Assembly: GCA_023515725.1 (NCBI GenBank)
Contig: JALDTO010000206.1
Coordinates: 392,189 to 456,188, forward strand
Reading direction: 5' to 3'
DNA length: 64,000 nt
Source of the DNA: Amoeboaphelidium protococcarum X5
Lineage: Eukaryota > Fungi > Aphelidiomycota
Shown here: positions 8,294 to 46,225 of the stretch, piece by piece
How positions within the stretch are numbered: position 1 is the first letter of the stretch
How the letters are laid out: each line of letters begins with the position of its first letter
Made by a program: the position numbers and the translations under genes
Notes under the pieces: model-generated
The model's input: the letters and a program-made list of their open reading frames with translations, nothing else
The model's database searches: none
What the model was told of the DNA's origin: nothing

Positions 8294-8420
8294 AATTATT
8301 GTTGTTCTTGGTATGTTAATTGCTTGATTAAGTATTGTTCTGGAGCAAAATAGAAAAACTGCTAATCACCGTGGGAAATTTATCGATATTGATGCCCCTC
8401 CCCCTGTTCACGGAGTATTA

Positions 8421-8433
8421 ATGTATTTTTCAC
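8421..8433 (+). repeat. Left terminal inverted repeat
   Basis: ATGTATTTTTCAC preceded by TA; reverse complement of 11751-11763 apart from the terminal base. Confidence 0.7.
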
Positions 8434-8472
8434 ATTTTAAGCGAATCACAACAAAGTAGGTCAAGCGTAGTG

Positions 8473-9060
8473 TCAAACGCGACGATTTCAATCAGGGCGT
8501 CCTCTACTCTCCGCAAAATATACTGCCATCAGTAGCATGCTTTAAGTTGCGTTGACATCCCGATATACAAATAAGGTAGGCCTTAGACTTAGCAATTTGG
8601 GCAAAAGCTAAGCTTGACTCCACCTACTTCTGTTGACGGTCAGGACAGCTGGACGATACATGCAGAAAGGAGCTAGAAGCATCAAAGCAACAGAGCACAG
8701 GGTGGGACTACTTGGGGACGCGCCTTCTACCCTTCTTAACGCGACGGTAGAGAAACCAACCTTTTCCAATTTTACACCCATGGCGGCAACATGAGCAGAG
8801 CTTTGTACTGTGGTATCTGGGGACGGAGACGACCAATCCACGACGACTGAGGCGACGCGTTAAATCTACAACGGGCACTGGTGGATTTTTATTGACATGC
8901 ATCATGCCAGCATTGATCACCAAAAACATATCCCTTAAGCCTGTTCAGCCTTTGAATATATATTGTCGATTGAACGCTCGTTGGATTCGATTCTCATCTT
9001 ACTATGATTGTAGGTAAACGAGGCGATTGAAGCATCTGTTGCAAGCGTCAGCAACCTAAG
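8473..9060 (-). pseudogene. Degenerate Fanzor/TnpB C-terminal fragment (RuvC-II, zinc finger, RuvC-III)
   Basis: PPVPVVDLTRRLSRRGLVVSVPRYHSTKLCSCC, then FCPNC and YRDVNATQSMLLM..RGRPD in shifted frames; parallels PATP..RVRLVPEYRTSQRCSNC..HCP..WHRDVNAARNI of the intact copy. Confidence 0.75.
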
Positions 9061-9518
9061 AGTAGAGGCTGTTAAGAGGAACCAAAAGGGGGAAAAATAT
9101 ACTGTAGCCGTTCAGTATATACTGCAGCTGTCCGCCGATTATTCAAAGTCATAATCAGAAGACTCTTTTACTATGACAAATGTCTACATTAAGCCTTGAT
9201 GTGTACCAATATAATTGCGCACGAACAAAACTACCATGTAAGCGTAAATCGAAGTACAATAATGCGTAATATAAATTTAACAAAATGTATAGCGCTTAAT
9301 CAATATATATATCGTTCATTGATCAACCGATGATTAACTTCATTAGATGTTCCATAGACGCATTGGTCACTTCTCAATTTAGCGGCTGTCTATATCTTGT
9401 GTCAAGATCTTAACGTTGATCTGCTTCCTCCTATTTATAGCAACTACTTGACTTAGCGGTTAAAATTAGATTTGGCAAAGCGGGACTCCATTTTGAGATT
9501 CGTCCGAGCCATTTTCAG

Positions 9519-9550
9519 CCAATCATAAAGTTGGTTTTTTGGGTATAAAA
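9519..9550 (+). promoter_or_regulatory. Putative CCAAT and TATA boxes of the Fanzor gene
   Basis: CCAAT at 9519-9523 and TATAAAA at 9544-9550, about 50-75 bp upstream of ATG 9596. Confidence 0.45.
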
Positions 9551-9595
9551 GCGTAATCGGACTGGTTTCAACTCTTTTCTTCAATAAAATCAGAA

Positions 9596-11686
9596 ATGGC
9601 AGATCCCCCTATAGAGGTAGCTGATATCGGTGGTGCCTTACCGCCGCGTAAACGTCAACGAGAAGTAAATTGTAAAGCATGTGGTCGCGACGATTACAAG
9701 CGCTCATCCAGTAAACTGTGTCCCAATTATGTCCCTCGTGCAAAAAATGCTGCCAAACCACAAGACAATATGGGAATACCTGTGGCTGAAGCCTACGTAG
9801 CTGTACCTATTGGTTTAAATGTATTTTGCAAAATCGACGCGGTGAAGCATGAGATAAGTGATTTGGTTTCGCGTTGTACTGATCTCAAAGTAGAGGCTTG
9901 CAGACTTCTCCTGTCCTTCGTGCTTAATCATTTGGTATACAATCCTGACACTCCAATGCCAGACATCCGCTTTGGCGCAAATGGGTAGATGCGTAACTTC
10001 TTCAGCTCTTTGATTGCTAATCCTAGGCGGCGTGATCTGCTTAATCGTAATACCTGCAACTGGGCGGCTTTAAACGAGTTTATTGAAGCACACTATGTAC
10101 CTCGTCGTCCTGCTGACTTGTTTTGGTGTGACATGCGAGGCTACTCAAACATGGTTACTGCCTTGGCTTCAGCTCACAATGACGATTGCGCTAGACATAT
10201 AAGCACAAACTTGCCATCAAGGCTGAAACAATGGCTGCGCCACAAGTTTCGAAAACATCTCGGCTTCTGTTTGGAGGAGGATGATGTTTGCACCCTTGCT
10301 GTTTATGTCTTGGCGTTGATAAACCCACCTGAAGATATTGAAGAAATGCCTCCTTATCCTGCAGAAATTATCGACAATTGTGGTAACGGAGAATTGGTGG
10401 TGTATTACATGGACTACTACGAGACGCGTGCACGTCAATACATCCTTTGCAATCTCCCAATGGATAAGGCTAGTCTTCAGAACAACTGGCATCTGTATCT
10501 GAAATCCATGTGGCGTATCCTTCGTACATTTGAAAGTAATCATCAAATGTATGAGGAGGAGTATCTGCTAAACAATGAAGGTCCTCTACTAAACGTTTAC
10601 GCGTTGCTGCCTCTAAATGGATTTACGCAGAAACACATCCTGATCACGTCCAATGTGCTGAAGGAGATATGTGTTGCTGCTAATCTGCCAGATGTCCGTC
10701 AGATGGATGTTCACGCTTTGTGGTCACAATGTTTCAAGTTGAACAAGGTCTCCACTACTGGCAATCAGAGAAGACGTTTTGGCTACTCCATAACATCCGA
10801 TGGTGTTGGCTGTTCTGCTTCCGTTTTACGTCCTGCCTATCCTGCCCCTCCTGCTAGCCGCTACGGGTTCGCTTTCGATGGTACCGGATATTAACCGCTG
10901 GATGTAAACAATGAGACCCGCGTTATCGGGATTGACGTCAATCGTGGCGTGCTTTTGGCTGCTTCTTGTGGTCCTGATGACCGGATTGCAGATGTTCCAA
11001 CCGATCAGACGCCGTTTGCTGATGGAACGCATGAGCTGGTGTACACGACTGCTAGATGGCGTGAAGAGAACGGAGAAAAGTTTGGTGAAAAGAAGAAGGC
11101 TGCATGGAATGAAATAGCTCCAGAGGTCGTTAATGCCATGGCCCAGATTCCTTCCGCCAAATCAACTTCGTTTCTGGGGATCATCTAACATTTGCAGTAC
11201 GTACTGCAACATAGAGATGCATTCACTGGCTTCTACCGTCCTGAGATGTGGCGAAAGCTGAGGAGAAAGCTATTCTCCAAGCGCCAAAGGGCCTATGACA
11301 ATTTGGCGCGTATGCTGACTCTCCGCCAAGATGGTTAGTTTGACCATAACACCATCATTGCATACGGCGCTGGCAACTTTGACACTGCGTCTCCTGGATA
11401 TCCTGCGACTCCAAATAAGCGGCTGTTTTATGAGCTGAAGAAACGCTGCAGAGTCCGCTTGGTCCCTGAGTATCGAACCAGTCAAAGATGTAGTAATTGC
11501 GAGAGTGAGCTTGGTCAATCACGAGTATGGAGAATTAAGCATTGTCCAAATAACAATTGCTTAGCTATCTGGCACCGTGATGTGAATGCGGCACGTAACA
11601 TTCGCTACATCTTTCTGGCAAGAAATCGTGACGGTGGTGAAAGGCCGGTTCCATTTCGATACGATCCTCCTCGTCCTCAATAATGA
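9596..11686 (+). CDS. Fanzor1 (eukaryotic TnpB-family RNA-guided endonuclease), 696 aa, apparently intact
   Basis: Four in-frame ORF pieces join under TAR=Gln. WED-like LLP..SITSDGVGCS; RuvC-I VIGID (D447); IIAYGAG; RuvC-II VPEYRTS (E625); CSNC..CPNNNC zinc finger; RuvC-III WHRDVNAARNI (D662). Confidence 0.92.
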
Positions 11687-11783
11687 TCAGTCCAGGCTCC
11701 GCGCGCAACAGTCTGATCGGCGGTGCAAATCCGTTGCTGTCCCTAGTTCGGTGAAAAATACAGTAACACGCGAATATCGAGAT
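11687..11783 (+). ncRNA. Candidate Fanzor omegaRNA (77-nt scaffold up to the TIR end plus flank-derived guide)
   Basis: GC-rich segment between the stop codon and the element end; hairpin CGGCGG-TGCAAAT-CCGTTG; GATCAG/CTGATC and ACAG/CTGT complementarities; expected position for Fanzor/TnpB guide RNAs. Confidence 0.55.
11751..11763 (-). repeat. Right terminal inverted repeat
   Basis: GTGAAAAATACAG followed by TA; reads TA-CTGTATTTTTC on the minus strand, resembling Tc2/pogo-type ends. Confidence 0.75.
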
Positions 11784-12841
11784 TACGCGCTATCTGGTCG
11801 TCGAGTTCCGAAACAGTTGATGAAGAAGCAAGTTAATAATAAAACTAAGTTACTACTAAAGTTACTTTTGTATATACAACGACTAATCTCATTCACCCAT
11901 GATCATTATAGCAGACTCAACTGCTTTTCAATCAACAGCTTTCCCCAAATAGAAAAAGCGCTATTCACAGTTCCACAGAAGAACATCACATCACCTACAA
12001 GATCACAGTCAGAAAGATTCATTAGAATTCAATACGAGCGCGTCTAAAGTAAAACTTACTTGGATTGTCAGACCAGCCGTGAGCAGAAATATTCATCTCA
12101 GATTCTTAAACGTTAAGCCAAGATCCACCATCGTCCGAGAATAAGAATAAATTTTGGAAGTAACGCTCAGCCTCAGCCTAGTTGTTTGAATACACAACAA
12201 CGGTGAGAGAGTCCAGCAACTGAACCGTGATACAAAAATTCTTCAGCGGCTCAAATTTCCTAATAAACAATTATTCGCTCTACACTGAATATAGGGATTA
12301 TACCAGTTAACACCTAAATCAAATCTTACTGAATAGCGCATTCTGTCTAGCTTGTGGTCCCAGCCTTGTTCCATCAGCCATTTCATGTTAATGTCAATAG
12401 GGACAACACTTGGTTGACATTTGATGACAAAAACTTGGTTCGCCATAGTACTCTCCTGGCTCATTGAATCATTTGACAATCGATAATCCTTAAGTGGTAA
12501 GGAGGATATTGGGGTATTCTGCACAGTCATTTCTTTCTTGACAACTTTTATACTAAATTATAAGTAAATTTTGTAACGGTTTAATGGTATATTGCACGTA
12601 TGAAAGCGAGGCTATTGAAGAATGCGTCCACGAGAAAAGCAGAAACGCGAAACGCGAAGACGCTTAGAGCACAGCTGACGCTTATGATAGTTCTCGCAGT
12701 CAAAGAGAGAGAGAGAGAGAGAGTTTGAAGCGAAAATAAGGGACAAGGTAACATTAACAATGTTGTAACGATAGAATTCTCATCAGTCTCATCTCCAACA
12801 AGGTATGCCAACATGACGATCAGTATAACAGAGGAGGAGTT

Positions 12842-45640: not shown

Positions 45641-46080
45641 ATGTATATCTTTTTGATGTATCTCTTTTCTTCAAGCTACGACAAGTATCCCCATCACTCT
45701 GCTGATGTGGCAAAGGAGATTGATGGACTATTTAAGTGTGGCGAGCTGTCGGCGTTAGTAACCACTAGTTCCATTGCTATTGCCGTTTATATTTCTGGCG
45801 TTAGAATTGTAATCCACTGTGGTCGTGGCTATACTTTTCTAGACCACATACAAGACGCTGGACGTGGCGGCCGCAATGGTTCTTATACTGTCTGTTTGCT
45901 GGTTGATCATGGCTGCACTAACCTGATCCGGCCAAGTTCGCTAGTCTGGTCGATTACTGCGAGAATTCCACCTCTGCCGCAGGTAGCTGATATACAGGGA
46001 ATTCGATCTTCAGATTGATGAAGACTGCTTGGAATGGGAAGTGGAACCGTGTGCTGTCTTCTGTCTAGATTGTCCTCCGT
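45641..46080 (+). pseudogene. Degenerate RecQ-like helicase C-terminal and Zn-binding fragment
   Basis: ALVTTSSIAIAVYISGVRIVIH..FLDHIQDAGRGGRNG..CLL (decayed motifs V/VI), then frameshifted CRRQLI..FD..C..C..FCLDC. Confidence 0.65.
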
Positions 46081-46210: not shown

Positions 46211-46223
46211 ATGAAAAATACAG
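46211..46223 (-). repeat. Third copy of the Fanzor-element terminal repeat
   Basis: ATGAAAAATACAG|TAA; 15-nt exact match to 11752-11766. Confidence 0.6.
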
Positions 46224-46225
46224 TA

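What the first reader, a model, noticed from the sequence alone, without database searches (positions are those of the whole stretch)
11687..11783. Candidate omegaRNA with a T-loop-like hairpin and a predicted guide
Seen: the 77 nt between the stop codon and the TIR end are GC-rich, with stem CGGCGG/CCGTTG closing a TGCAAAT loop (GGTGCAAATCC, T-loop-like) plus GATCAG/CTGATC and ACAG/CTGT pairings. Established: characterised fungal Fanzor1 omegaRNAs are short (under ~100 nt) and overlap the right end. Inference: scaffold ~11687-11765 and guide beginning ACACGCGAATATCGAG.
Basis: inference. Interest (0 to 1): 0.75.

Follow-up and report, generated by a model that had tools for sequence, protein, structure and literature searches.

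The report
Fanzor guide RNA in algal parasite
The 77 bases after an intact Fanzor nuclease gene sit at the end of a young, multi-copy jumping gene and likely form the scaffold of its guide RNA, predicted to aim the nuclease at the transposon-free version of this same site; that makes it a new member of a known system.

Summary
The stretch lies at the right end of a TA-flanked, inverted-repeat element (8421-11763). Under the TAA/TAG=Gln code its gene is an unbroken 696-aa Fanzor1, 98-100% identical to copies annotated in the aphelid Amoeboaphelidium protococcarum; a 92% identical copy is already listed as FZ1 by Saito et al. 2023. Contigs from public runs show three other copies diverging right after 11765, elements lacking the Fanzor gene that keep the post-stop segment, a single-TA empty allele, and a probable TA-CAG-TA excision footprint. 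A guide starting at 11766 fits the published SpuFz1 architecture. The named pairings exist, but the region folds no better than shuffles. The 'T-loop' hairpin is one of two exclusive folds, and the matching SpuFz1 bases are a stem arm plus linker. One distant Fanzor1 locus shares the motif; no real covariation test and no small-RNA data were available. Verdict: likely omegaRNA scaffold (about 0.8), expression unshown, new member of a known kind. The coexisting filled, empty and footprint alleles could help test Fanzor homing in a cut-and-paste transposon.

The parts
8417..8420 (+). Predicted TAM, (A)TTA, ending in the left TA target-site duplication (8419-8420)
   Evidence: TA duplication shown by the single-TA empty allele (run X3). 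Two other left ends align from 8417 and 8418 (X11 records 1 and 2). TAM = left flank plus TA is by analogy with SpuFz1 CATA; inferred.
8421..8433 (+). Left terminal inverted repeat (12 of 13 match to the right end; the first base differs)
8421..8852 (+). Left segment that other elements share before diverging at 8852; no transposase remnant found in 8421-9596
   Evidence: Loose ends at 8852 in X7, X3 and X11. Six frames gave no Pfam hit above its cut-off.
9596..11686 (+). Intact Fanzor1 gene, 696 aa under code 6; RuvC D447/N449, E625, D662; zinc finger C632, C635, C650, C655
   Evidence: (PF07282, E 1.9e-10)
11687..11765 (+). Predicted omegaRNA scaffold (5' end uncertain, about 11684-11694), including the right TIR and the TA duplication
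   Evidence: architecture
11696..11726 (+). Candidate stem-loop 1 (6 of 7 pairs, 17-nt loop ending UGAUCG), preceded by UCC at 11691-11693 and followed by an AAAUCCG linker
   Evidence: Pairing probability 0.89-0.95 for spans starting at 11687 or 11690 with the guide; post hoc grammar hit
11719..11735 (+).
   Evidence: a similar hairpin is the favoured fold in distant locus L004
11735..11765 (+). Terminal stem 2, closed by U-A and G.U pairs with the TA duplication; other copies carry 7-8 nt more in its distal part
   Evidence: on its own not above chance
11751..11763 (+). Right terminal inverted repeat
11764..11765 (+). Right TA target-site duplication
   Evidence: Shared by three other copies whose flanks diverge after 11765; single TA in the empty allele
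11766..11780 (+). Predicted 14-15 nt guide, from host flank
   Evidence: Boundary; guide length from Saito 2023 section 7 and Yoon 2023 passages; not observed as RNA

Best explanation
The segment is the right end of a multi-copy, TA-duplicating element that carries an intact Fanzor1 gene, and it likely encodes the scaffold of that Fanzor's omegaRNA, with a predicted 14-15 nt guide starting at 11766. Shown: the element boundaries, the TA duplication, the intact gene with its catalytic residues, many near-identical protein copies, and retention of the post-stop segment in elements without the gene. Inferred: a transcript running through the right end is trimmed to about 90-95 nt and bound by the protein. 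In the complex it would fold as UCC, stem-loop 1 (11696-11726), an AAAUCCG linker and a terminal stem closed by the duplicated UA, as in SpuFz1. The complex would cut element-free DNA that has an (A)TTA-like motif followed by the guide-matching sequence. Repair from the filled allele would copy or restore the element. A Tc1/mariner-like transposase acting in trans would move it; none was found in the element.
For: The ORF opens under code 6, a code reported for A. protococcarum (PMC5304391 passage). Eight of the 14 aligned copies are 99-100% identical. A 92% copy is classed FZ1 in Saito's Supplementary Table. SpuFz1 is the top solved relative of the family profile, E 1.1e-23. Three listed loose ends (X3, X11, X9) start right after 11765. 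Contigs of 771 and 1957 nt join the region only at 11679, and two X7 records at 11683, as ghost Spu-1 loci keep the 75-nt region. The empty allele has one TA. A SpuFz1/PpFz1-like grammar, relaxed after seeing this sequence, hits once in both strands of the window (at 11691) and in 9 of 20000 shuffles. Distant locus L004 (35% protein identity) has a similar post-stop segment (score 36, 2 of 20000 shuffles) and ends with the same eight bases as the SpuFz1 scaffold.
Against: Folding energy is no better than shuffles. The strict grammar fails, and the relaxed one hits 0 of 78 related regions. The terminal stem is not above chance: 19-21% of TA sites give 6 or more pairs, and six relatives give p 0.51. 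Some copies carry changes in the stem-loop 1 5' arm (11699, 11701, 11702), and others lack 11705-11730; whether partners compensate could not be read. The window's long-range stem-loop 1 is not conserved in L004. One of 5476 control tiles scored 37 against the segment, so L004 is suggestive, not overwhelming.
Confidence: 0.8

Rival explanations
1. It is the omegaRNA, but its core is the first reader's fold: a GAUCAG/CUGAUC helix plus a T-arm-like hairpin, rather than the SpuFz1-type stem-loop 1 and linker. This is a sub-case of the best explanation.
For: It dominates (probability 0.94-0.98) for 11684-11765 without the guide. Gene-less elements keep sequence from 11679-11683, which includes GATCAG. 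In L004 a hairpin over the same motif has probability about 1.0. With the gap placed in the loop, 5 of 5 stem pairs hold in both sequences, one with a change on both sides (by inspection; two sequences only).
Against: The T-loop hairpin falls to 0.1 or less once the guide is present, and to 0.01 for starts at 11687 or later. In the SpuFz1 structure the homologous GGUUC-AAUCC straddles the end of stem 1 and the A29-C34 linker (numbered on the scaffold). The GAUCAG helix is not conserved in L004.
Confidence: 0.25
2. The segment is only a subterminal transposon end or 3' UTR, kept in gene-less elements because a transposase needs it, and makes no functional guide RNA in this family.
For: No folding signal above shuffles, no RNA data, and degenerate copies with deletions in the 5' half exist.
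Against: The left end has no inverted copy of the segment beyond the TIR (16 of 25). Retention starts at the stop codon. The nuclease is intact in many copies. Saito et al. report the omegaRNA for 20 further Fz loci by the same workflow.
Confidence: 0.15
3. The GGTGCAAATCC motif is a tRNA-derived B box that lets RNA polymerase III transcribe the guide RNA on its own, also from gene-less elements.
For: SpuFz1 scaffolds and L004 carry GGTTCAA at the matching place, which fits the B-box consensus (recalled, from no call).
Against: No enrichment in post-stop regions of relatives: 4 of 44 clusters against 5.2 in shuffles; A-box 15 of 44 against 12.0. The window has G at the position of the conserved T. 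PpFz1 RNAs lack the motif. No tRNA or Rfam match above threshold.
Confidence: 0.07
4. A box C/D snoRNA-like RNA.
For: snR40 scores 17.8 bits over 11679-11784.
Against: The gathering score is 50, E is 4.5 and 0.16, and the match runs across the element boundary into variable flank.
Confidence: 0.02

Closest known systems
SpuFz1 / Spu-1 element of Spizellomyces punctatus (Saito 2023, PMC10432273; Bao and Jurka 2013, PMC3627910; PDB 8GKH)
   Same: Fz1 gene alone between TIRs with TA duplications, no transposase inside, 75-80 nt between stop and end, gene-less 'ghost' elements that keep that segment, TA inside the scaffold, a similar motif before the terminal stem.
   Different: The element is 3343 bp with a 1.2 kb 5' region (Spu-1 about 2.1 kb). 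TIRs are 13 bp, not 30-33. The predicted TAM is (A)TTA, not CATA. The candidate SL1 loop is 17 nt, not 6. The protein has an N-terminal C-x2-C-x4-H-x8-C motif (damaged in this copy) and uses a non-standard genetic code.
PpFz1 (Parasitella parasitica) and GtFz1 omegaRNAs (Xu 2024, PMC11423790)
   Same: 7-bp first stem-loop followed by a variable region and the guide; PpFz1 shares UCC and a UUAUCG loop with SpuFz1.
   Different: Sequence is not alignable by eye; the profile matches to these proteins are weaker (E 3e-10 and 4e-15).
Mariner-associated Fanzor1 elements such as PUl-4 (Bao and Jurka 2013)
   Same: Fanzor-only elements flanked by TA duplications.
   Different: No matching mariner family or transposase was identified here; no genome was available.
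TnpB restorative homing in IS200/IS605 and IS607 (review PMC13565253)
   Same: A guide taken from the right flank would target the element-free site.
   Different: Those elements excise without a scar; a TA-type DDE element leaves footprints that change the bases in front of the target.

Membership tests
Fanzor1 protein | RuvC D...E(6 residues before zinc finger)...D triad with a C4 zinc finger | tested here: met
   D447, E625, C632/C635/C650/C655, D662. The motif reads DVN where Yoon 2023 gives DPG as the Fanzor signature.
Fanzor1 protein | 600-700 aa, TDG-type WED motif, closest solved relatives are Fz1 | tested here: met
   696 aa; ITSDG at 399; the profile's top three PDB hits are Spu, Gt and Pp Fz1. 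The single-sequence search found none. A 92% copy is labelled FZ1.
Fanzor1 omegaRNA | [quoted passage not shown] | tested here: met
   Copies share sequence to 11765 and then diverge; gene-less elements keep it.
Fanzor1 omegaRNA | 7-bp stem-loop 1 and a terminal stem that includes the TSD | tested here: inconclusive
   Foldable with 6 of 7 pairs. The strict grammar is not met and the relaxed one is. The terminal stem is not above chance.
Fanzor1 omegaRNA | Covariation across homologues | tested here: inconclusive
   Same-species variants were seen only as partial tables; one alignable distant locus among 75 tested.
Fanzor1 omegaRNA | Expressed small RNA extending 14-15 nt past the end and bound by the protein | not testable with these tools
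   All 24 listed runs are kept as contigs.
Fanzor1 system | RNA-guided, TAM-dependent DNA cleavage | not testable with these tools
   Bench assay needed.
Tc1/mariner-type element | TA duplication and TIRs | tested here: met
Tc1/mariner-type element | DDE/D transposase in the element or in a partner with the same TIRs | tested here: inconclusive
   None in 8421-9596; a partner could not be sought because no genome is held.
tRNA or tRNA-derived RNA | Cloverleaf, or Rfam/ARAGORN match | tested here: not met

The most novel reading that the evidence does not exclude
This site records natural Fanzor homing in a cut-and-paste transposon. A young element sits at one TA on one genome copy. On the diverged second copy (about 88% identical flank) one sample has a never-filled site with C where the predicted TAM has T, and another has a TA-CAG-TA excision footprint. 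The element would have been copied across by guide-directed cutting and later excised, and both surviving element-free alleles would be immune because their TAM is broken. Footprints would thus switch off re-cutting, so the Fanzor would spread its element to homologous copies rather than restore excised sites.
Probability: 0.18. Interest if true: 0.75.

Novelty: new member of a known kind. Interest (0 to 1): 0.38.

Why it matters
As an omegaRNA it adds a compact Fz1 guide scaffold and a predicted (A)TTA TAM from an aphelid, a lineage with no characterised omegaRNA in the table part read. The family looks recently active, which makes it a reasonable candidate for tool screens. The biological role of Fanzors is stated as unknown (Saito 2023, discussion), and a 2026 review finds their link to scar-leaving DDE transposons hard to explain. 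A locus with filled, empty and probable footprint alleles in one species offers a direct genomic and biochemical test of homing.

Tried and rejected
No genome is held, so copies could not be aligned in full. The four in-frame TAA/TAG codons first suggested a pseudogene; rejected, since code 6 opens the frame and annotated copies have Q there. Folding stability as evidence was rejected. Rfam and ARAGORN gave nothing above threshold. A terminal stem closing on the TSD looked shared by eye among relatives but failed its null (p 0.51). A general B-box or A-box signal failed, and so did a UURUCG loop signal (3 of 44 against 4.6). The relaxed grammar found 0 of 78 related regions. A consensus pattern of the window and L004 gave one bacterial hit that is not a tRNA and none in viral contigs. 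A ten-locus family around L075 starts with TCCAGG after its stop, but its 53-nt alignment folds weakly and was not pursued. L073 and L009 scored 45 and 655 of 20000 shuffles and are not counted as homologues. X11 is of unrecorded kind and its depth is not read as expression. Earlier findings of the scan: nothing returned. Literature searches for Fanzor with Amoeboaphelidium and with B box and polymerase III returned no papers. Fanzor with tRNA-like returned five listings that look like unrelated reviews by title, and Fanzor with footprint, excision and mariner returned two, one checked by passages and not relevant.

Full report
Observation. The sequence at 11687-11783 is as quoted. Read with the standard code, the upstream frame 9596-11686 has four internal TAA/TAG codons. 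With table 6 it is one 696-aa frame ending at TGA 11684-11686. Its closest database relatives are annotated from Amoeboaphelidium protococcarum, for which a UAR-to-glutamine code is reported (PMC5304391, two passages seen). So 77 nt separate the stop from the end of an inverted repeat at G11763. The segment is 55.8% GC, a level reached by 0.84% of 77-nt windows. The named helices can be drawn, but GATCAG starts at 11685 and C11718 is needed by two of them. All five spans folded are no more stable than their shuffles (z +0.89 to +2.02). The T-loop-like 11-mer occurs once in the window and in 23 of 100 shuffles.

The protein. It carries PF07282, a RuvC triad D447/E625/D662 and a C4 zinc finger. 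The 90% cluster has 16 members, of which 15 were listed, and five more clusters are from the same species. Eight of 14 aligned copies are 99-100% identical to the window's, so the family is young. A profile of 26 relatives finds SpuFz1 first (E 1.1e-23), then GtFz1 and PpFz1; the single sequence found no solved structure. One 92% identical copy is listed as FZ1 in Saito et al. 2023 Supplementary file 3. The species name does not occur in their omegaRNA tables (file 2 of that supplement could not be read).

The element. A 13-bp repeat at 8421-8433 matches the right end at 12 of 13 positions with TA on both sides; three matches with at most one mismatch against 0.07 expected. Five of 24 listed public runs were laid, all as contigs. 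Three listed loose ends (X3, X11, X9; 8 more rows not shown) begin right after 11765, so copies share the TA and then differ. Run X3 has a contig joining the two flanks with a single TA, which shows the duplication, and also a contig identical to the filled right junction at similar depth (53.6 and 56.4; the tool warns that depth is no copy number). Contigs in X11 and X3 meet the region only at 11679, after 705 and 1891 other bases, and two X7 records at 11683. Left-end homology ends at 8852 in three runs. I infer gene-less elements like the ghost Spu-1 loci; that both ends lie in the same molecules is not shown. No transposase remnant was found in 8421-9596.

The RNA. In SpuFz1 the 75-nt scaffold ends with the TA and the guide is the next 14-15 nt (Saito sections 7 and 10; Xu Table S3). 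Yoon et al. say the same of other Fz1s (passages). Numbering the published scaffold against the structure text shows that its own T-loop-like motif straddles the 3' arm of stem 1 and the A29-C34 linker. The window can be read the same way: UCC (11691), stem-loop 1 (11696-11726, 6 of 7 pairs), linker, and a stem (11735-11765) whose first pairs are U-A and G.U with the duplicated TA. This fold has probability 0.89-0.98 for most pairs when the RNA starts at 11687 or 11690 and includes the guide; the T-loop hairpin then has 0.01. Starting at 11684 without the guide reverses this. A strict version of the published grammar fails here. A version relaxed after seeing the sequence hits once in the whole window and in 9 of 20000 shuffles, an optimistic figure, and in 0 of 78 related regions. 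Among 75 related post-stop regions from 84 loci, one, L004, aligns to the segment (2 of 20000 shuffles; one of 5476 control tiles scored higher). There the T-arm-like hairpin is the favoured fold, although a Spu-like short stem with 6 of 7 pairs can also be drawn. The fold is therefore open. The terminal stem and B-box ideas failed their nulls. Same-species variants were visible only in part. Insertions of 7-8 nt after 11748-11750 fall in the distal part of the terminal stem, which is dispensable in SpuFz1. Changes at 11699, 11701 and 11702 and a variant lacking 11705-11730 count against, or mark decayed copies.

Mechanism. Most likely a read-through transcript is trimmed and bound by the Fanzor, and the complex cuts the element-free form of the site. 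Three left ends share TTA before the element (window, and X11 records 1 and 2), which suggests an (A)TTA TAM; this is weak. The element-free alleles seen lie on a diverged copy of the locus (25 other letters and 6 gaps in 203 nt for X7); genome-wide duplication in this species is mentioned in PMC10608142 (passages). The X3 allele has C at position -3. The X7 allele resumes alignment at 11759 without gaps, which reads as TA-CAG-TA, the canonical Sleeping Beauty-type footprint (bioRxiv 659086 passages); the tool did not print those five letters, so this is inferred. Both alleles would lack the predicted TAM. A footprint on the diverged copy at the same TA as a young insertion is most simply explained by copying across and later excision, but gene conversion of a footprint, or a contig artefact, is not excluded.

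Comparison and verdict. The locus works like Spu-1 and meets the testable Fz1 and element criteria; expression, binding and cleavage could not be tested. Papers seen: Saito 2023 (abstract, sections 7, 10, 11, supplement searches, file 5 part 1 of 2), Xu 2024 (abstract, results part 1 of 3, section 11, Table S3), Bao and Jurka 2013, Jiang 2023 and Yoon 2023 (passages), PMC13565253 (passages, section 6.2), PMC12292965 (passages). Supplements of Jiang and Yoon were not searched and may list this family. It is a new member of a known kind: omegaRNA identity about 0.8, T-loop hairpin as the working fold about 0.25, interest 0.38.

Noticed in passing
window 46212-46225: An exact second copy of the last 14 bases of the right end plus TA, downstream of a helicase C-terminal fragment (45641-46018). 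It may be a decayed element end; no matching left end was found.
   Followed up: partly
window 9671-9724: N-terminal C-x2-C-x4-H-x8-C motif shared by this Fz1 clade. The window's copy has Y for H at residue 34, unlike the other full-length copies (T9695 differs in the runs covering it).
   Followed up: partly
window 8421 and 11763: The two ends differ at the outermost base (A versus G), and another left end in run X11 seems to share the A, so the asymmetry may be family-wide.
   Followed up: no
window 11705-11730: Diverged copies in runs X7, X3 and X9 appear to lack these 26 nt while keeping the terminal stem region.
   Followed up: no
whole window: Host genes read through TAA/TAG (MCM3, an aminotransferase class IV, a mitochondrial carrier), consistent with code 6.
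   Followed up: partly
L004:683-758: Candidate omegaRNA of a distant Fz1 with a long terminal stem and a Spu-like end.
   Followed up: partly
L003, L007, L015, L023, L048: Metagenomic Fz1 relatives with candidate TA-flanked inverted repeats, 2.1-3.3 kb apart.
   Followed up: partly
L081, L083, L084 (one viral contig): Several Fanzor-like 3' ends with long inverted repeats in one 146-kb viral contig.
   Followed up: no
window 11630-11818 and 11721-12000: The same filled junction is present in two environmental metagenome runs (X9 record 23, X5 record 24), so the insertion is shared among samples.
   Followed up: no
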